DNA of 64,000 bases from Candidatus Hodarchaeum mangrovi. GTDB taxonomy: Archaea; Asgardarchaeota; Heimdallarchaeia; Hodarchaeales; Hodarchaeaceae. Below the pieces are notes generated by a model. It did not search any database. It worked only from the letters and a program-made list of their open reading frames with translations, and was not told the origin of the DNA. This document shows, piece after piece, positions 34,697 through 41,835 of this stretch (the stretch's first letter is position 1; every line of letters starts with the position of its first letter). The stretch is from the NCBI GenBank assembly GCA_016839515.1, contig JAEOUE010000254.1, positions 20,932 to 84,931 on the forward strand. Direction: 5' to 3'. The position numbers were made by a program, and so were the translations under genes.

Positions 34697-36643
34697 TCAA
34701 GAAGGAGTATCAAGCAGATTGGAATATTCAATTAATCCTAAATCTTGCAAGTGATTTTTATTAGGTAATGAAGTCTCTAAATCCCATTTCAATTTATTAT
34801 AAAAATCACGTATAATCTGATTTTCTTCTTCGACAGTAATACCTTTATTTGGGCCACTAATTGCTGTTTTAAGAAGTCGAGTAGGTAATTTGAATGCTAA
34901 AGGATTAATTCCTTCTCGAATGTTGAACAAATGTTTAAGAGTAAAAATTCTTTCACCAATTATTGCAAGTTCTTTTCCTGAATAGGTTGAACCCAGAGTT
35001 AATTTTAAGAATTCAGCTATTGGGAAATTTCCCGTTACTAAAGAAAATTGACATAACCCCAGTGACGAAGTGAGTTGATTATAAAAATAAAAATTAGAGA
35101 TTTGATCCTTCTTATCTAATTCAGGATACATTTCGTTATATTTAGATAATCCAATCATCAACTCCATAAAAGCAGTATGTCGACCAGGAGCTGGATCTAT
35201 TCGATAGGGTAAAACAAGTGTTTTAGAATAACGGGGATCATGAGCTGGAATTGGTTGATTTTGGATATGCATCGCATATTCTTCTCCCAATTCCTTTTCA
35301 ACTGCTTTTAATCCTTCTGCAAACCGATCCCCAAGGCCTCTACGATGAACTATTAGCTCTAAAAAGGCCAAATAGTTTTGCGGGTGTCCCCAATCTAGGA
35401 TTAAACCTTCTAAATCTTGAGCTGTTAACCGTCCTGTTTCCTGTGCCTCTATAGCATAAGCTATTAATGCACCAGCTGCGATTGTATCCACTCCCTGTCT
35501 ATTACAAAAGTCATTAAGCTGAAAAATTGATCCTAGATCATCATTCAGGAGATTTGATCCCAGCATTGCTAATGTTTCATATTCAGGCTTATGGGTATCT
35601 TCAAAAGTATATCTTTCATCTGAATAACGCATTATTCCTCCACAAGCCATTGGACAGGAATGACATCCATAGCTTTTGATCTGATATTGTATTACATTAT
35701 CTCCAGTTATTTTTATACTATTTTTTAACGGAAAATCCTTATGAGAACCACCCCAATTTTTTACTGGACCATCTCCTGTTTCTACTGCAATAGCCGTTCC
35801 AGCACAAGTTCCCCACTTTCTATACCCCTCTATCACTAGATTAGAAGGACTCATAGAGCCGAAGTTTTTAATCCTGAAGCGTCGAATCCATGGTGCAAAT
35901 ATCGTTGAAGCTTTTAAAGCAGGTTCCATTAATGAACTAATTCCTTTATTTATCCGTTTATTAACCAATTTTCTAAGCTCGGTTAATCCATCTGGGTCAC
36001 TTACTGGTATATCCTTTGTTCCACTAACGACAATAGCTTTCAAATTTTTAGACCCCATGACTGCACCTAAACCACTTCTAGCCGCTATTCGTCCTTTATC
36101 GGTCACAATACCACTAATTAATACTTTATTCTCTCCAGCTAATCCTATAGAAGCAACATGTACCTTTCCATATTGATTCTGCAGTATTTCCTCAGTTTCT
36201 AAACAATCCTTCCCTTTTAAATGAGGTGAGGAAATAATCTCTACTGAATCATCAGTAATACGTAGAATACTTAGCTCTTTAGATTTTCCTTTAATTATAA
36301 GACCATCAAATCCAGATTTTCTTAATTCTGGCCCAAAACGTCCACCACAGTTAGCCTCTCCCCATGTATTAGTCAGTGGAGATTTAGATGCAACAGTAAA
36401 CCGTCCAGAAAAAGGAATTCGTGTTGCACTAAATATTCCTGTAATAAAGCATAAAAAATTATCTGGAGAGAGAGGATCAACTTTAGCAGGCATATTTCTT
36501 AAGAGATAATCAATAACTATGCCATGACCACCTAAAAATTTTAAAAATTTTTCTTCACTAAATCCAATTGACTCTAATGAAACAGATTTATTTGTTAAGT
36601 CAATTATTGCAAGACGATATAATCTAGAATTAGAAATACTCAA
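34697..36643 (-). CDS. aor: Aldehyde:ferredoxin oxidoreductase family (tungstopterin)
   Basis: KSPLT, GLGAVMGSKNLKA, CHSCPMACG, PEYET, HDPR. Confidence 0.92.
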   Translation of the reverse strand: MSISNSRLYRLAIIDLTNKSVSLESIGFSEEKFLKFLGGHGIVIDYLLRNMPAKVDPLSPDNFLCFITGIFSATRIPFSGRFTVASKSPLTNTWGEANCGGRFGPELRKSGFDGLIIKGKSKELSILRITDDSVEIISSPHLKGKDCLETEEILQNQYGKVHVASIGLAGENKVLISGIVTDKGRIAARSGLGAVMGSKNLKAIVVSGTKDIPVSDPDGLTELRKLVNKRINKGISSLMEPALKASTIFAPWIRRFRIKNFGSMSPSNLVIEGYRKWGTCAGTAIAVETGDGPVKNWGGSHKDFPLKNSIKITGDNVIQYQIKSYGCHSCPMACGGIMRYSDERYTFEDTHKPEYETLAMLGSNLLNDDLGSIFQLNDFCNRQGVDTIAAGALIAYAIEAQETGRLTAQDLEGLILDWGHPQNYLAFLELIVHRRGLGDRFAEGLKAVEKELGEEYAMHIQNQPIPAHDPRYSKTLVLPYRIDPAPGRHTAFMELMIGLSKYNEMYPELDKKDQISNFYFYNQLTSSLGLCQFSLVTGNFPIAEFLKLTLGSTYSGKELAIIGERIFTLKHLFNIREGINPLAFKLPTRLLKTAISGPNKGITVEEENQIIRDFYNKLKWDLETSLPNKNHLQDLGLIEYSNLLDTPS

Positions 36644-37666: not shown

Positions 37667-38863
37667 GTGACCAAAAAAAGTGTGATTTCAGGGTTTGTCA
37701 AACCTAGGTTTGAAGCTGTACAGGAAGCCTTCGCTGAGAACTTTGAGCAGCGAAATGAACTAGGGGCAGCCTGTTGTATTTACCACCGAGGAGAAAAAGT
37801 AGTCGACTTATGGGGTGGCATTAGAAACGAAACTACTGGAGAACCATGGGAAGAAGATACCATGGTGATTGTTTGGTCAACTACAAAGGGATTAGCTGGA
37901 TTAGCTATGGCACTTGCTCATTCACGGGGATTATTTGACTTCGATGAATGTGTCTCAAAGTATTGGCCTGAATTTGCTCAAGAGGGTAAAGAGAATATCA
38001 CTATTCGACAGCTACTAGCACATCAAGCGGGACTCTTTGAATTCGATGGACAAGGTGACAAGAACACGATAGCAGACCTTGATCGTCTAGCAGAGAACTT
38101 AGCACGACAAAAACCTGCATGGGAGCCAGGAACGAAGCAGGGATATCACGCTATCAGCCTTGGATACTACCAAAGCGAGCTCTTGCGCCACGTTGACCCC
38201 AATGGCCGTAGCCTAGGGCAGTACTTCCAAGATGAAATTGCTACTCCACTTGGTCTCGACTTCTACATTCGACTTCCTGAAGAAATTCCAAATTCCAGAC
38301 TAGCTACCCTTCGAACTGCCAAGATTGGCCTTTTGGCGATACGAGGTATGCCATTCCGCTTGGTTCTTGCATCGATGTACAAAAATTCTACATTCCGTAG
38401 ATCGCTATTTGGGAGTGACATTTCCTTGGACAAAGAACATATTTATGCTAGGAATTTCGAAGTTCCTTCAGGAGGAGGTGTGGGAACAGCCCGTGCCATT
38501 GCTCATGCATACAGCGTTTTTGCGACCGGTGGAAAGGAACTTGGACTGCGAGAGGATACACTTCAACAATTAATGGCACCCCCCGTTGCTCCATTACAAG
38601 GATCCAGAGATCTAGCCCTAAAAGTGGAGATACCATTCTCTCTCAGTTTCACGAAACCCTCTCCAAAGACCCCCTGGGGTTCTCCTAGCTCATTTGGGAT
38701 GCCAGGAACAGGAGGTTCATTTGGATTTGCGGATCCACAAGCTAAGATAGGATATGGGTATGTCCTCAATGGGATGGGTATGTCACTTACTGATCCAAGA
38801 GACCTCGCTCTACGTACAGCAATGTACCATTCAATTGGCATAACAGATCCGTACTATGAGTGA
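37667..38863 (+). CDS. Serine hydrolase, beta-lactamase class C / EstB-like family
   Basis: SxxK (STTK), LLAHQAGL, WEPG, GYHA; GGGTGA lies 6 nt before the GTG. Confidence 0.9.
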   Translation: MTKKSVISGFVKPRFEAVQEAFAENFEQRNELGAACCIYHRGEKVVDLWGGIRNETTGEPWEEDTMVIVWSTTKGLAGLAMALAHSRGLFDFDECVSKYWPEFAQEGKENITIRQLLAHQAGLFEFDGQGDKNTIADLDRLAENLARQKPAWEPGTKQGYHAISLGYYQSELLRHVDPNGRSLGQYFQDEIATPLGLDFYIRLPEEIPNSRLATLRTAKIGLLAIRGMPFRLVLASMYKNSTFRRSLFGSDISLDKEHIYARNFEVPSGGGVGTARAIAHAYSVFATGGKELGLREDTLQQLMAPPVAPLQGSRDLALKVEIPFSLSFTKPSPKTPWGSPSSFGMPGTGGSFGFADPQAKIGYGYVLNGMGMSLTDPRDLALRTAMYHSIGITDPYYE

Positions 38864-39889
38864 GGAGACAATCCAACACTAGGAACCAAGAGATTCAAAA
38901 CGATACAAATTTTAACAAGTCTGCAAATTCTAATACTTCCTATTGTATTTTGCCTTCACATTTGAATATGAAAACTAACATACTTATAGGTACTTTGTGG
39001 TAGGTTACAGTTTCATTACTGCGTACAGATATTGATTTCGTCTCTACCCAATCGGAACTCTTTTATATTCCTCGTGTTAGGTATCTTGGGATTCTTAATA
39101 GATCCCTAGATTCTGAAAGGATAATTATTGTGGTTAATCAGGATTCAGGGACATATTATAATCTATGATTGTATAATATTGGCGACAGTGCAAGTCATTG
39201 TCCTCCTACGTGGAGATGAAAACCAAGTTTGATTAGCAAAACAGATCTATACCACAGGACCAGCTAGAACATACCTGAAATAGAAAAGGAGCAAACAGAA
39301 TCGTCCCAGAAAAAATCAGTAATAAACAGATTACAACCAGATAATAGAATAGGGCTATAGGGAACAATATAAGTAATTGCAAATTATATAAGTCACTACA
39401 ATACAAGTGATTTAATATTATAGGACAGTGTTACAGTGATTATTAATAAAGAAATTCTAGAGGTTGTTGTTAGCATAAACAACCATCAGGAAGATCTATT
39501 CATTTGCAATATTATTTTTAGTTTTCTACTTCATTGATAGACCATTTTTGCAAAGTGTTGAAGTATTTAAAAGAGATAATTGTTTCCTTTTGAATCGCAC
39601 AAAAGAGAAAAGATTCTCAGCGGTGTGCAAAGCATTAATTTTGTTGACTTCCTGATGGAAGGAATTTTCACCTCTCCCCTATCCTATAGCTATTAAGACG
39701 GTGTGAAACCTATATTTTAAATTATAACCTTTTCCTTTGTTTACAATCGATACTTTAACCTTAATACTATTGTTTTTAATTGCTTATTTGTTATATCACT
39801 ATTTGTGACAATATAACTTAGGATCAAGTATACTCAAGCAGTTAACATCCATTGGAGATATATAGTATAACACCAATGAATCATATATT

Positions 39890-41551
39890 ATGAGTCTTCT
39901 CTATATGAAAGTTCTTGAAAAATCTCCTGACCAGTATGATAAAGAATTTCAAAAATTATTTCCAGAAAGCGCAGAAATATATGAATTAATATTAAAGACA
40001 ATCGGGAAAACGGGAAAAGTGCTGGAGGTTGGGAGTGGAACAGGAAAACTAGCGATTCAATTGAATAAACTTGGATTAGATGTTACTGCTGTCGATACCT
40101 CGAAAGATATGATTGATTTTGCCTTAAAAGAAGTTCAATTAAATAATATAGATGTTAAATTTATTCTGGGAGACTTTACTTCTCATATTATTTATCAGCA
40201 ACTAGAAACAGAAGGACCATTTGATTTTATTATTTCTACCTTTGTCTTATCAGAACTCACACCTCTTAAACAAATACTCTTCCTTAAACAAATATTTAAT
40301 CTCTTATCCCCAAAAGGACAAATTTTTATTGCAGCAGAAACATTTCCGAAGACAAGATTTGCGAAATATTTCTATAAACTAAAAATAGGTATTCTTAATC
40401 AAATTAATATTTTTCGTGAAGGGTATAGTACTTATCCTATCCTTGACTTCAAGAAAAGATTAGAATATTGGTTTCAAGGTGACTTTTTACTGGAAAAAAG
40501 GAATATTCAATTATATAATGGAACAAAAAAAGATTCTGAACCTGAAATTACACCTTTACTTTCTTTAGAAAGTCAACTGGGACGATTTCGATGGTTAAAA
40601 GTATTTTATTGTATTCTTAATGGAGTTTTAACCCGTAAAAGTATTAAACCAGGTTTATATAAAGTCGGGAATCCAAATAACCAATCTCCATTGTTGGTTA
40701 CCTCAAATTACTATTGGACCGCTTCAACAGTCTCTAAAACTTTACAAAACTTTCAAATTGACTGTTATGTACTCGTTGCAGATACCAAAGGAATTAATGT
40801 TTGGTGTGCTGCTGGAGGAGGTCATTTTACCCATCATAGTATTATCGATGCACTCAGACTCTTTGATGTGGATAAATTTCTGACCCATAAAGAAATTGTT
40901 ATTCCTCAACTTGCAGCAACAGGAGTTGATAGAAAAGAAATAACAAAATTCAAATGGGAACCAAAATTTGGACCAATAAGTATTAAAGAAATCCATAATT
41001 ATCTGATTAATGGTCGAAAAAAATATCCTTCCCAATCCAAAATTAGATTTGATATTGTTAACAGAACATTTATGGGAACTCAACATACAATATTTCTATT
41101 AATAATGTATTTTCTCCCAATTTTCTTATTAACTGGATTTCTGGGTTTTTTAGGATTGGATCGATCATTCTTTTGGTTTAATGTGTCGTTTCAAGGTGCT
41201 ATTATTGCATTATCCCAAAGTCAATTTTTTGCTTGGTTTTACCCCCTTTTCAATTATACACGATCCTTTTTCATTAAAGGACTTACTTTTGGAACAATTT
41301 CTAGCGTAGGAATCTTGTTTCTCATGACTGGTTTAAAAACCTCATATAACCTCTCCACCATTATTTTCTGGTTTCTGCTTATAATGCTCCTTGGTCTGCT
41401 CGTAAGTTTGGATTTTGCTGGACAAACACCCTATTCAAATCATTTAGAAGTCGAAGCTGATTTGATATTGTTTCTTTTACCAGCGATTCTCATAATAATC
41501 TTTTTAATAACAATGTTGATATTATTTCCTCCTATTACGCTATTATTTTAA
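39890..41551 (+). CDS. SAM methyltransferase fused to HgcA-like corrinoid-binding and membrane domains
   Basis: N-terminal VLEVGSGTG. Central PGLYKVGNP, LLVTSNY, DTKGINVWCAAGGG, PQLAATG and FGP. About 5 C-terminal TM helices with DFAGQTP. Confidence 0.88.
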   Translation: MSLLYMKVLEKSPDQYDKEFQKLFPESAEIYELILKTIGKTGKVLEVGSGTGKLAIQLNKLGLDVTAVDTSKDMIDFALKEVQLNNIDVKFILGDFTSHIIYQQLETEGPFDFIISTFVLSELTPLKQILFLKQIFNLLSPKGQIFIAAETFPKTRFAKYFYKLKIGILNQINIFREGYSTYPILDFKKRLEYWFQGDFLLEKRNIQLYNGTKKDSEPEITPLLSLESQLGRFRWLKVFYCILNGVLTRKSIKPGLYKVGNPNNQSPLLVTSNYYWTASTVSKTLQNFQIDCYVLVADTKGINVWCAAGGGHFTHHSIIDALRLFDVDKFLTHKEIVIPQLAATGVDRKEITKFKWEPKFGPISIKEIHNYLINGRKKYPSQSKIRFDIVNRTFMGTQHTIFLLIMYFLPIFLLTGFLGFLGLDRSFFWFNVSFQGAIIALSQSQFFAWFYPLFNYTRSFFIKGLTFGTISSVGILFLMTGLKTSYNLSTIIFWFLLIMLLGLLVSLDFAGQTPYSNHLEVEADLILFLLPAILIIIFLITMLILFPPITLLF

Positions 41552-41556
41552 GAAAG

Positions 41557-41835
41557 GTGTATATAGTGACTGCTAAAATCTTTCAAGAAAAATGCATCGG
41601 ATGTACATGGTGTGTTGAGGTCTGTCCTCATCAAATAATAATTATTTCAAAAGAAAATAATAAAGCTGAGATTATAAATGCAAAATTCTGCATAGAATGT
41701 GGAGCCTGTGCATTACAATGCCCTGTTGAGGCAATTCGCTCTCATCCTATAGGTTGTGGATGTATAGGTGGAGTATTAAGAAAAAAGATTAATAAAATTT
41801 TACGAAAAGAAAACCCTAAATCTTGTTGTAATTAA
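41557..41835 (+). CDS. hgcB: HgcB-like 2[4Fe-4S] ferredoxin
   Basis: CIGCTWCVEVCP and CIECGACALQCP, then GCGC and terminal SCCN; 5 nt after the hgcA-like gene. Confidence 0.85.
   Translation: MYIVTAKIFQEKCIGCTWCVEVCPHQIIIISKENNKAEIINAKFCIECGACALQCPVEAIRSHPIGCGCIGGVLRKKINKILRKENPKSCCN

What the first reader, a model, noticed from the sequence alone, without database searches (positions are those of the whole stretch)
39890..41835. SAM-methyltransferase::HgcA-like fusion plus HgcB: a candidate self-contained corrinoid methylation system
Seen: one 553 aa ORF joins a class I SAM-MTase domain (VLEVGSGTG, aa ~1-215), a corrinoid-binding domain with cap-helix motif GINVWCAAGGG (Cys codon at 40805) and about 5 TM helices. 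Five nt later comes a ferredoxin with two CxxCxxCxxxC motifs, GCGC and terminal CC. Known: HgcA (N[VI]WCA[AG]GK, Cys-on cobalt) and HgcB form the mercury methylase, canonical HgcA has no methyltransferase domain, and SAM has been reported as its methyl donor. Inference: the fusion physically couples a SAM-using domain to the corrinoid, either loading the methyl group onto cobalt or acting on the substrate. The K-to-G change after the cap helix and DFAGQTP in place of NFTG[SC]T look, from memory, closer to fused HgcAB-like paralogs not shown to methylate Hg. The substrate may therefore be another metal(loid) or a thiol. As I recall, the N-terminus resembles stand-alone corrinoid-associated methyltransferases (CpaM), so the association may be known even if the fusion is not.
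Basis: partly seen in the sequence, partly recalled or inferred. Interest (0 to 1): 0.92.

Follow-up and report, generated by a model that had tools for sequence, protein, structure and literature searches.

The report
SAM-methyltransferase fused to HgcA-like corrinoid protein
An Asgard archaeon encodes one protein that joins a SAM-binding methyltransferase to a membrane-anchored, vitamin-B12-type relative of the mercury-methylating protein HgcA, followed by its ferredoxin partner; the fusion is real, common in this phylum and uncharacterised, and it suggests how SAM feeds methyl groups to this protein family.

Summary
ORF 39890-41551 (553 aa) joins a class I SAM methyltransferase domain, whose best family match is CpaM, to an HgcA-like corrinoid domain with the cap-helix Cys306 and five TM helices. 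Five nt later comes a ferredoxin with the three HgcB sequence hallmarks checked here. All four NCBIfam matches are below their curated cut-offs, and the cap helix (NVWCAAGG) fails the published HgcA motif. The junction is not an assembly artefact: contigs from other studies bridge it, and uninterrupted fused frames occur in roughly 140 of 400 genomes of the phylum. The three parts always travel together in four arrangements: [M][A][B], [M][AB], [MA][B] and [MAB]. None of 80 canonical hgcA loci has a CpaM-like neighbour. My best reading (confidence 0.5) is that the methyltransferase domain passes the methyl of SAM to Co(I) of the tethered corrinoid, the ferredoxin supplies electrons and a Cys-Cys substrate arm, and the methyl goes on to an unknown thiophilic acceptor. 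Mercury is possible but not favoured. This is a new fusion-state variant of the curated but unstudied CpaM/HgcAB-like module. I found no description of it in print. Interest is moderate to high.

The parts
39890..41551 (+). Fused gene, 553 aa including stop: CpaM-like SAM methyltransferase joined to an HgcA-like corrinoid membrane protein (alternative start at M6, nt 39905)
   Evidence: ORF; domain hits; full-length homologues P0002-P0024 (37-75% identity); independent contigs bridge the junction
39890..40534 (+). Class I SAM-methyltransferase domain (aa 1-215), CpaM-like, with no cysteine
   Evidence: NF043040 at 121.8 bits (cut-off 180), aa 2-192 on model positions 1-192 of 216. G48, G50, G52 and D69 invariant in 32 of 32 fused proteins. 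Cys only at 241, 292 and 306; fold neighbours are class I SAM methyltransferases
40019..40045 (+). SAM-binding motif I (VLEVGSGTG, aa 44-52)
   Evidence: Read; glycines invariant in A1
40535..40624 (+). Short inter-domain linker and start of HgcA homology (aa 216-245)
   Evidence: lower pLDDT blocks (81 at aa 211-220, 74 at aa 241-250). In split relatives the stop between cpaM and hgcA-like aligns here (stop at query residue 219)
40625..41044 (+). Corrinoid-binding domain (aa 246-385), CFeSP/HgcA type
   Evidence: PF03599 at 2e-15. CFeSP gamma subunits 2h9a/4c1n at 1.6e-8 over aa 251-371; top fold hit is the deposited HgcAB model 9a0b_A
40799..40819 (+). Cap helix (aa 304-310) with Cys306 (codon 40805-40807), the predicted lower axial cobalt ligand
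   Evidence: helix 304-310. N303, W305, C306, A308 and G310 invariant; aligned with WCAAGK of canonical HgcA
41054..41524 (+). Transmembrane domain with five helices (aa 389-545), including DFAGQTP where canonical HgcA has NFTG
   Evidence: helices; hydropathy peaks; motif comparison
41557..41835 (+). HgcB-like 2x[4Fe-4S] ferredoxin, 92 aa, with CIECGA, post-cluster GCGC and C-terminal CC
   Evidence: NF040864 at 72 bits (cut-off 99); the same three features are present in 70, 71 and 60 of 72 canonical HgcBs; an HgcB-like ORF lies directly downstream in 10 of 10 ortholog loci

Best explanation
The two genes encode a three-part, SAM-fed corrinoid methyl relay. Steps 1, 3 and 4 are inferred; only step 2 rests on sequence features shown here.

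1. Inferred: the N-terminal CpaM-like domain binds SAM and hands its methyl to Co(I) of a corrinoid held on the tethered HgcA-like domain. SAH is released and methyl-Co(III) forms. This is the role of a methyltransferase I, and it resembles the reductive remethylation done by the reactivation module of methionine synthase.

2. Shown by sequence, function inferred: Cys306 of the cap helix serves as the lower axial thiolate ligand, as in HgcA.

3. Inferred: the downstream HgcB-like ferredoxin delivers low-potential electrons to make or restore Co(I). Its post-cluster Cys and C-terminal Cys-Cys bring a thiophilic substrate to the site.

4. Inferred: the methyl leaves the Cys-ligated cobalt for an electrophilic acceptor at the membrane face of the five-helix domain. 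In this way the CH3+ of SAM becomes a CH3-/CH3-radical donor.

The acceptor is unknown. A soft metal(loid) ion is most likely. Hg(II) is possible, but I give it about one chance in four.
For: Obligate module. All 38 paralog loci examined carry a CpaM-like domain or ORF at 160 bits or more with my own HMM. Most of them were training rows. The rows not used for training were L027, L029, L035, L040 and L043-L048, and they scored 160-259 bits. Twenty of the 38 loci were fetched on their HgcA-like match alone; in 19 of these the CpaM-like ORF lies directly upstream, and in L027 it lies about 2.6 kb away.

Control. None of 80 canonical hgcA loci (827 kb, flanks up to 6 kb) has such an ORF. The best methyltransferase hit there is 45.7 bits, within the 35-69 bit range of generic methyltransferases of the window's own genome.

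Fusion in every combination. Found arrangements are [M][A][B] (L022-L030), [M][AB] (L031-L040, L044, L045), [MA][B] (L010-L021, L046-L048) and [MAB] (L043 at 595 aa, P0034 at 599 aa). The AU test rejects a single clade of all 37 MA-fused rows (delta lnL 39.3, p 0.0046; the group was named after I saw the tree).

Intact cofactor sites. G48, G50, G52, D69 and N303, W305, C306, A308, G310 are invariant in 32 of 32 fused proteins.

Ferredoxin hallmarks. CIECGA, a Cys at +11/+13 after cluster 2, and a terminal CC are present, against 70, 71 and 60 of 72 canonical HgcBs.

Precedent. Purified HgcAB takes its methyl from SAM through methyl-cob(III)alamin with Cys ligation (PMC11588087; abstract and Discussion read).

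Model and docking. The whole-protein model is confident across domains (pTM 0.81). The docking test of the methyltransferase domain (aa 1-225) against aa 246-553 gave ipSAE 0.35, best control 0.02, verdict 'weak support'. That mark was reached by 58 of 80 solved complexes and 2 of 110 mismatched pairs. At a score of 0.60 or under it was reached by only 7 of the 80 solved complexes and by both mismatches that passed. The runs agree in at least 60% of contacts and the partner's pLDDT is at least 74.

Corrinoid use by the cell. Nine PF02310 B12-binding hits in the own genome are over the cut-off.
Against: Canonical HgcAB uses SAM with no CpaM (PMC11588087; 0 of 80 loci). A separate SAM domain is therefore not required for SAM-to-cobalt transfer in this family and might do something else.

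I know of no class I SAM methyltransferase shown to methylate a protein-bound corrinoid cobalt (recalled, not searched exhaustively).

The nearest solved folds are small-molecule C-, N- and O-methyltransferases and TehB, which fits a small-molecule substrate equally well.

Docking support is only weak. I had no coordinates, so the SAM-to-cobalt distance is unknown.

All four NCBIfam matches are below their cut-offs, so function cannot be transferred by equivalog rules.

The nine 72-74-aa ferredoxins of the split sister clade lack the Cys arm, so the substrate-arm idea does not generalise to the whole module.

Neither CobS nor CbiB was found in the 91%-complete genome, so the corrinoid would have to be salvaged.
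Confidence: 0.5

Rival explanations
1. The methyltransferase domain methylates the substrate or product directly with SAM, for example a second methylation or a different atom of a metal(loid) or small molecule. The corrinoid domain gets its methyl in some other way or performs redox chemistry, and the fusion only channels an intermediate.
For: Fold neighbours are small-molecule methyltransferases, including TehB. Pfam TehB scores 2.1e-8. Stand-alone CpaMs give secondary hits to UbiE/MenG and ArsM-type models. Canonical HgcAB needs no extra domain to use SAM.
Against: The domain has no cysteine, whereas arsenite methyltransferases bind As(III) through cysteines (established knowledge, recalled; also stated in passages of 10.1101/2022.10.17.512643). 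The association with the corrinoid protein is obligate and repeatedly becomes covalent, which is more than expected for two enzymes acting in sequence on a diffusible molecule. All secondary family hits are far below their cut-offs.
Confidence: 0.2
2. It is simply an Asgard mercury methylase: a functional HgcAB whose SAM site has been made explicit by the fusion, with Hg(II) as the physiological or fortuitous substrate.
For: Cys306, the five TM helices and the adjacent ferredoxin with CIECGA, post-cluster Cys and terminal CC are all present. SAM is the donor for HgcAB. The stretch occurs in sediment metagenomes where canonical-type hgcA fragments also appear (loose ends).
Against: The cap helix NVWCAAGG is not one of the six high-stringency motifs, which all end in GK (PMC10087281 passages). 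It scores 172 bits against the cut-off of 275 for HgcA. It lies outside the canonical clade. Cultured carriers of the related fused HgcAB-like genes did not methylate Hg (PMC4646819 and PMC10087281 passages), although the authors note this does not prove inability.
Confidence: 0.15
3. The corrinoid part works reductively, for example as a halomethane dehalogenase as recently proposed for HgcAB, and the SAM domain is regulatory or only repairs oxidised cobalt.
For: A 2026 preprint reports CCl4 dechlorination by heterologous HgcAB (10.64898/2026.04.26.720869; abstract and Discussion read). A role limited to reductive reactivation would parallel methionine synthase (recalled).
Against: The strict co-inheritance of a SAM methyltransferase with intact SAM motifs in 38 of 38 paralog loci, against 0 of 80 canonical loci, points to methyl transfer as core chemistry of this branch. 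The preprint concerns canonical HgcAB, which lacks CpaM. Nothing in the window's neighbourhood suggests organohalide metabolism.
Confidence: 0.1
4. It is an assembly chimera or a decaying gene.
For: The genome is a 348-contig MAG with 6% contamination.
Against: Independent contigs from other studies bridge the junction. Ten of 10 ortholog loci keep the same two-gene layout. Of about 150 listed places, all but 7 are uninterrupted frames. Cofactor residues are invariant. The model is confident.
Confidence: 0.01

Closest known systems
HgcA/HgcB mercury methylase (Pseudodesulfovibrio mercurii ND132 type; NCBIfam NF040863 and NF040864)
   Same: CFeSP-type corrinoid domain with a cap-helix Cys, five TM helices, and an adjacent 2x[4Fe-4S] ferredoxin with C(M/I)ECGA, a post-cluster Cys and a terminal CC. 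SAM is the methyl source in HgcAB.
   Different: It has an N-terminal 215-aa SAM methyltransferase domain that none of 80 canonical loci has even as a neighbour. The cap helix ends GG, not GK, and DFAG replaces NFTG. It scores below both curated cut-offs and lies outside the canonical clade.
HgcAB-like fusion protein plus CpaM (NCBIfam NF043039 and NF043040; Pyrococcus furiosus-type 'fused HgcAB')
   Same: The same three parts and the same WCAAGG-type cap helix. Stand-alone CpaMs next to Asgard HgcAB-like genes pass the cut-offs (244-265 vs 180, and 402-441 vs 285). The window's parts hit these two models best.
   Different: The fusion partner is swapped. Here the methyltransferase is fused to the corrinoid protein and the ferredoxin is free. 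The window's parts are below both cut-offs (121.8 and 211.1). Its ferredoxin keeps the HgcB Cys arm, which only 2 of 7 Asgard HgcAB-like tails examined keep. The tree gives it a separate clade with split forms.
Methionine synthase (MetH) reactivation module with flavodoxin (recalled from general knowledge; not tested here)
   Same: The proposed logic is the same: a SAM-binding module tethered to a corrinoid domain, with a low-potential electron carrier, giving reductive methylation of cobalt.
   Different: The SAM-binding fold is unrelated (class I Rossmann here). The lower ligand is Cys and not His. The protein is membrane-anchored. SAM would be the catalytic donor here, not only a repair donor.
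CFeSP (AcsC/CdhE) with its methyltransferase MeTr
   Same: Homologous corrinoid domain (2h9a, 4c1n, 4djd at 1.6e-8 to 2.3e-7). A separate methyltransferase loads the cobalt.
   Different: MeTr is a TIM-barrel enzyme that uses methyl-tetrahydrofolate (PMC7305189 passage). The window's genome shows no other PF03599 protein, so no CdhD or CdhE was found (genome 91% complete).

Membership tests
HgcA (mercury methylation corrinoid protein, NF040863; Capo et al. 2022 criteria) | PF03599 corrinoid domain with a cap helix and conserved Cys | tested here: met
   (2e-15); Cys306 aligned with the canonical WC
HgcA (mercury methylation corrinoid protein, NF040863; Capo et al. 2022 criteria) | High-stringency cap-helix motif N[VI]WC[AS][AGS]GK (six listed variants) | tested here: not met
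   The window has NVWCAAGG; criterion read in PMC10087281
HgcA (mercury methylation corrinoid protein, NF040863; Capo et al. 2022 criteria) | Score at or above the NCBIfam cut-off of 275 bits | tested here: not met
   172.2 bits
HgcA (mercury methylation corrinoid protein, NF040863; Capo et al. 2022 criteria) | Five C-terminal TM helices | tested here: met
   helices; hydropathy
HgcA (mercury methylation corrinoid protein, NF040863; Capo et al. 2022 criteria) | Placement within the canonical HgcA clade | tested here: not met
   Quick ML tree, 93 rows: canonical clade of 24 rows (SH-aLRT 90) excludes the window. The window's clade of 24 fused rows has support 96
HgcA (mercury methylation corrinoid protein, NF040863; Capo et al. 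2022 criteria) | Methylates Hg(II) | not testable with these tools
   Needs an expression and isotope assay
HgcAB-like fusion protein (NF043039) | Score at or above the cut-off of 285 bits | tested here: not met
   211.1 bits over model positions 15-281 of 350
HgcAB-like fusion protein (NF043039) | Ferredoxin domain fused to the C-terminus of the corrinoid/TM protein | tested here: not met
   The ferredoxin is a separate ORF 5 nt downstream
HgcAB-like fusion protein (NF043039) | CpaM encoded alongside | tested here: met
   Present as the fused N-terminal domain; adjacency holds in all 38 paralog loci
CpaM (corrinoid protein-associated methyltransferase, NF043040) | Score at or above the cut-off of 180 bits | tested here: not met
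   121.8 bits, the best of 62 families, aligned over model positions 1-192 of 216. Relatives L021, P0025 and P0034 pass at 222-289 bits
CpaM (corrinoid protein-associated methyltransferase, NF043040) | Class I SAM-binding motifs intact | tested here: met
   G48, G50, G52 and D69 invariant in A1; class I fold
CpaM (corrinoid protein-associated methyltransferase, NF043040) | Association with an HgcA-family corrinoid protein | tested here: met
   Covalent fusion; 0 of 80 canonical loci as contrast
HgcB (mercury methylation ferredoxin, NF040864) | Score at or above the cut-off of 99 bits | tested here: not met
   72 bits
HgcB (mercury methylation ferredoxin, NF040864) | Two CX2CX2CX3C motifs and C(M/I)ECGA, co-located with an hgcA-type gene | tested here: met
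   criterion from PMC10087281
HgcB (mercury methylation ferredoxin, NF040864) | Post-cluster Cys (ND132 Cys73 position) and C-terminal Cys-Cys | tested here: met
   Cys at +11/+13 after cluster 2 and a terminal CC. Canonical HgcBs have a Cys at +12 in 71 of 72 and CC in 60 of 72. Equivalence to ND132 numbering is inferred, because ND132 HgcB was not aligned

The most novel reading that the evidence does not exclude
The CpaM/HgcA-like/ferredoxin triad, not canonical HgcAB, is the main form of this protein family in Asgard archaea. It would be a dedicated machine that inverts the polarity of SAM's methyl group through a Cys-ligated corrinoid, in order to methylate an electrophilic, non-mercury substrate at the membrane. 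CpaM would then be the first class I SAM:corrinoid-cobalt methyltransferase. The natural fusions would point to the native, pre-mercury function of the whole HgcA family.
Probability: 0.3. Interest if true: 0.8.

Novelty: new variant of a known kind. Interest (0 to 1): 0.6.

Why it matters
The finding bears on three open points.

1. **SAM delivery.** In 2024 SAM was shown to be the methyl donor for HgcAB, but the Discussion I read names no SAM-binding site on the complex. A natural, repeatedly evolved fusion of a SAM-binding domain to HgcA-like proteins is Rosetta-stone evidence that SAM-to-cobalt transfer is an old trait of the family. It also offers a well-defined domain to study.

2. **Metagenome surveys.** These genes share the cap-helix DNA with true hgcA and are present in roughly a third or more of the Asgard genomes sampled. 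Mercury-methylation surveys of sediments need to recognise them and bin them separately.

3. **Native function.** The native substrate of HgcA-family proteins is a long-standing puzzle. The obligate triad, with and without the ferredoxin Cys arm, gives a set of natural variants for testing it.

Tried and rejected
**Upstream gap.** An Rfam scan of 38700-40000 gave only chance-level sub-threshold hits (mir-1829 at 33.5 vs 60 bits; SmY), so no riboswitch was found.

**Conserved neighbours.** Beyond the module, neighbours are shared only within subclades. Examples are a methyladenine glycosylase in five loci and a radical SAM ORF in two loci. The window's own neighbours (AOR, acyltransferase-like, beta-lactamase-fold, aldo/keto reductase, EamA, M24 peptidase, MFS) are not conserved next to orthologs.

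**Expression.** No RNA holder was listed. This says nothing on expression.

**Methyltransferase-domain tree.** It recovered the same groups as the HgcA-part tree, but only two very long outgroup rows survived. I draw nothing from its rooting or deep order.

**Deep order of the four HgcA-part groups.** Unresolved in the quick tree. I did not run a careful search.

**Selenocysteine or pseudogene reading of in-frame stops.** Rejected for the cases I looked at. In L044, L045 and L129 the match is two same-frame genes separated by a stop. For L130 only the HgcA part matched in one frame.

**Geometry of SAM relative to cobalt.** Not obtainable. No model coordinates are delivered to the script box, and cobalamin is not among the ligands offered.

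**Literature.**
- 0 papers for CpaM + corrinoid.
- 0 occurrences of 'corrinoid protein-associated methyltransferase' or 'HgcAB-like fusion protein'.
- The only paper holding both hgcA and 'SAM-dependent methyltransferase' concerns an ArsR regulator.
- hgcA with Asgard names gave only a taxonomy review holding both kinds of term.
- The hgcA / Thorarchaeota / 'methyltransferase domain' search gave nothing relevant.
- Supplements are closed. The supplementary trees and tables of PMC10083202, and the Hg-MATE catalogue of PMC10087281, may list these Asgard sequences, and I could not check.

Full report
**What is there**

The window carries ORF 39890..41551 (+, 553 aa) and, five nucleotides later, ORF 41557..41835 (+, 92 aa, GTG start).

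Domain matches:

| Part | Library | Family | Score or E-value | Curated cut-off |
|---|---|---|---|---|
| aa 44-143 | Pfam | Methyltransf_25 (class I SAM methyltransferase) | 2.1e-14 | passed |
| aa 252-369 | Pfam | CdhD / PF03599 | 2e-15 | passed |
| N-terminus (aa 2-192) | NCBIfam | CpaM NF043040 | 121.8 bits | 180 |
| Remainder (aa 251-517) | NCBIfam | HgcAB-like NF043039 | 211.1 bits | 285 |
| Remainder (aa 251-545) | NCBIfam | HgcA NF040863 | 172.2 bits | 275 |
| Second ORF | NCBIfam | HgcB NF040864 | 72 bits | 99 |

Each NCBIfam hit is the best or near-best for its part, and every one is below its cut-off.

An AlphaFold2 model built on 32 fused homologues is confident (pLDDT 89.1, pTM 0.81). 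It shows a Rossmann-type domain, a short linker, the corrinoid domain with the cap helix at aa 304-310, and five long C-terminal helices. Its best structural match is the deposited HgcAB model 9a0b_A, followed by generic class I SAM methyltransferases. By sequence the only solved relatives of the corrinoid part are CFeSP gamma subunits.

**Is the fusion real?**

Yes. The stretch is held by 20 DNA runs from 8 studies. Contigs of two runs not flagged as possible sources bridge the domain junction without indels: X6 covers 39600-41115 and X12 covers 40282-40987.

The protein search found 23 further full-length homologues (37-75% identity, 543-556 aa). Their NCBI names come from Hodarchaeales, Heimdallarchaeota, Hermodarchaeota and Promethearchaeota MAGs, and all are labelled only 'methyltransferase domain-containing protein'. 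It also found a more distant set of 11 proteins with the same methyltransferase-plus-CdhD composition. One cluster of that set has a member named from an Anaerolineae bacterium.

In 400 genomes of the phylum, 202 have a match at E <= 1e-25. Every listed place spans the methyltransferase and corrinoid parts (query from <= 97 to >= 404). All but 7 of the roughly 150 listed places are uninterrupted frames, which makes about 140 genomes. They are concentrated in family f20 (105 of 135 genomes with a match) and also occur in f1, f3, f12, f19, f21 and f31. A further 114 matches were not listed.

**The module and its arrangements**

Fetching loci from relatives showed that three parts always travel together: M (CpaM-like), A (HgcA-like) and B (ferredoxin).

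| Arrangement | Loci | Details |
|---|---|---|
| [MA][B] | L010-L019 | Ten of 10 orthologs of the window gene are followed by an 87-92-aa ferredoxin |
| [MA][B] | L020, L021, L046-L048 | Second fused paralog group, same layout |
| [M][A][B] | L022-L030 | Nine loci of the same genus carry three separate genes |
| [M][AB] | L031-L040, L044, L045 | Loci of other families |
| [MAB] | L043 (595 aa), P0034 (599 aa) | Single ORF with all three parts |

NCBIfam anchors this picture. The stand-alone methyltransferases beside Asgard HgcAB-like genes pass the CpaM cut-off (244-265 bits) and their partners pass the HgcAB-like cut-off (402-441 bits). P0034 passes both. L021 and P0025 pass CpaM. The window's clade and the split clade are divergent and fall below the cut-offs.

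With an HMM I built from these methyltransferase parts, 38 of 38 paralog loci score 160 bits or more. That total includes ten rows not used for training, and 20 loci that were chosen on their HgcA-like match alone.

As a control I fetched 80 canonical hgcA loci (827 kb). None has a CpaM-like ORF. The five methyltransferase hits there score 20-46 bits, at or below the 35-69 bit range of generic methyltransferases of the window's own genome.

**Relationship to HgcA**

In an alignment of 93 proteins, the 24 HgcA rows (six of them named HgcA by NCBI) read WCAAGKGTF... and mostly NFTG[CSA][ST]. The window and its orthologs read WCAAGG[GK]HFTH and D[FL]AG.T. Most HgcAB-like proteins read WCAAGGGHFT.

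The published consensus protocol accepts only cap helices ending in GK as high-stringency hgcA, and the window fails this (PMC10087281 passages).

A quick ML tree on 308 columns, rooted on a CdhE from a relative, gave four groups:
- a canonical clade of 24 rows (SH-aLRT 90);
- a clade of the 24 Asgard fused rows (96) sister to the nine split rows (87);
- an HgcAB-like superclade (97) that also contains the ten distant fused rows and P0034;
- the FUS2 pair on its own long branch.

The order of these four groups is unresolved. Holding all 37 MA-fused rows together costs 39.3 log-likelihood units (p-AU 0.0046; the group was named after I saw the tree). The fusion state has therefore changed more than once, though gains cannot be told from losses.

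Lin et al. 2023 placed Asgard sequences in their fused-hgcAB clade and say they removed the first 327 poorly aligned alignment positions (PMC10083202 passages). I infer, but cannot show, that the methyltransferase domains were in that trimmed part.

**The ferredoxin**

The window's ORF2 carries CIECGA, two cysteines 11 and 13 residues after the second cluster, and a terminal CC. Among 72 canonical HgcBs recovered from the 80 control loci, these features occur in 70, 71 (at +12) and 60.

Orthologous partners keep the post-cluster Cys pair and one or two terminal cysteines in 10 of 10 loci (CC in 7). The nine 72-74-aa ferredoxins of the split loci lack both features. Of seven Asgard HgcAB-like tails examined, two have a CC.

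The window therefore combines a non-canonical HgcA-like part with a ferredoxin that keeps the cysteines reported as crucial for mercury methylation (introduction of PMC11588087).

**Mechanism**

The following is shown:
- intact SAM motifs (G48, G50, G52 and D69 invariant in 32 of 32);
- an intact cap helix with Cys306;
- no cysteine in the methyltransferase domain;
- obligate and repeatedly covalent linkage of the three parts;
- nine B12-binding-domain proteins in the genome, but no CobS or CbiB found at 91% completeness;
- no other PF03599 protein in the genome, so no acetyl-CoA-pathway context was found.

Known from the literature: purified HgcAB takes its methyl from SAM through a Cys-ligated methyl-cob(III)alamin, and HgcB relays the electrons (PMC11588087; abstract and Discussion read).

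From these points I infer the relay stated as the best explanation. The domain-docking test gave only weak support: ipSAE 0.35 against a best control of 0.02. That mark was reached by 58 of 80 solved complexes and 2 of 110 mismatches. At a score of 0.60 or under it was reached by only 7 of the 80 solved complexes and by both mismatches that passed. The runs agree in at least 60% of contacts and the partner's pLDDT is at least 74.

The main counter-argument is that canonical HgcAB manages without CpaM. The domain could instead act on the substrate, and its fold neighbours are small-molecule methyltransferases. The recent proposal that HgcAB is natively a halomethane dehalogenase (preprint 10.64898/2026.04.26.720869) does not explain an obligate SAM domain.

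**Novelty**

The CpaM and HgcAB-like families exist as NCBIfam models, so the association is known to curators, and the fused proteins sit unnamed in public databases. My five targeted searches of the paper library and the passages I read found no description of CpaM or of a methyltransferase-HgcA fusion. Supplements could not be opened.

I rate this a new fusion-state variant of a known but uncharacterised kind.

Noticed in passing
window 38864-39889: A 1,026-nt stretch upstream of the fused gene has no ORF of 60 aa or more on the + strand. It has only a 57-aa hydrophobic ORF on the - strand (39233-39406). Nothing in Rfam is above gathering score.
   Followed up: partly
window 40781-40816 (loose ends): Contigs from three other metagenome runs match only the 32-36-nt cap-helix stretch and then continue unlike the window. 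By my reading of the printed ends, three of them go on with KGTF-type codons as in canonical hgcA. If so, canonical-type hgcA carriers share these sediments, and short-read surveys could confuse the two.
   Followed up: no
G000 whole genome: Nine B12-binding-domain (PF02310) hits are over the cut-off, several in ORFs of about 220 aa. No CobS or CbiB was found in this 91%-complete MAG, which suggests corrinoid salvage.
   Followed up: partly
L043 (G099:C31), 1083-2870 +: A single 595-aa ORF carries the methyltransferase, HgcA-like and ferredoxin parts, giving a triple fusion in another family (f12) of the phylum. P0034 (599 aa) is a similar triple fusion that passes both the CpaM and the HgcAB-like cut-offs.
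   Followed up: partly
L044, L045, L129 (G208:C23, G270:C23, G015:C1): In the three loci I fetched and could resolve, matches that the genome search reported with in-frame TAA or TGA are cpaM and the next gene lying in the same frame, separated by a stop in the linker. They are not selenocysteine or decay. The other flagged matches were not fetched, and L130 was only partly resolved.
   Followed up: yes
window 34697-36643 (-): An aldehyde:ferredoxin oxidoreductase (AFOR_N and AFOR_C) lies 3 kb upstream. It could be a source of reduced ferredoxin, but it is not conserved next to orthologs.
   Followed up: partly
L017/L018 3160-4302 (-); L013-L016 and L019: Subclade-specific neighbours of the fused gene are a 380-aa radical SAM ORF (two loci) and a methyladenine glycosylase plus two unnamed small ORFs (five loci).
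   Followed up: partly
L022-L030: The split-type loci pair their HgcA-like protein (cap helix WCSAAGG) with 72-74-aa ferredoxins that lack the post-cluster and C-terminal cysteines. This is a natural 'armless' variant of the module within the same genus.
   Followed up: partly
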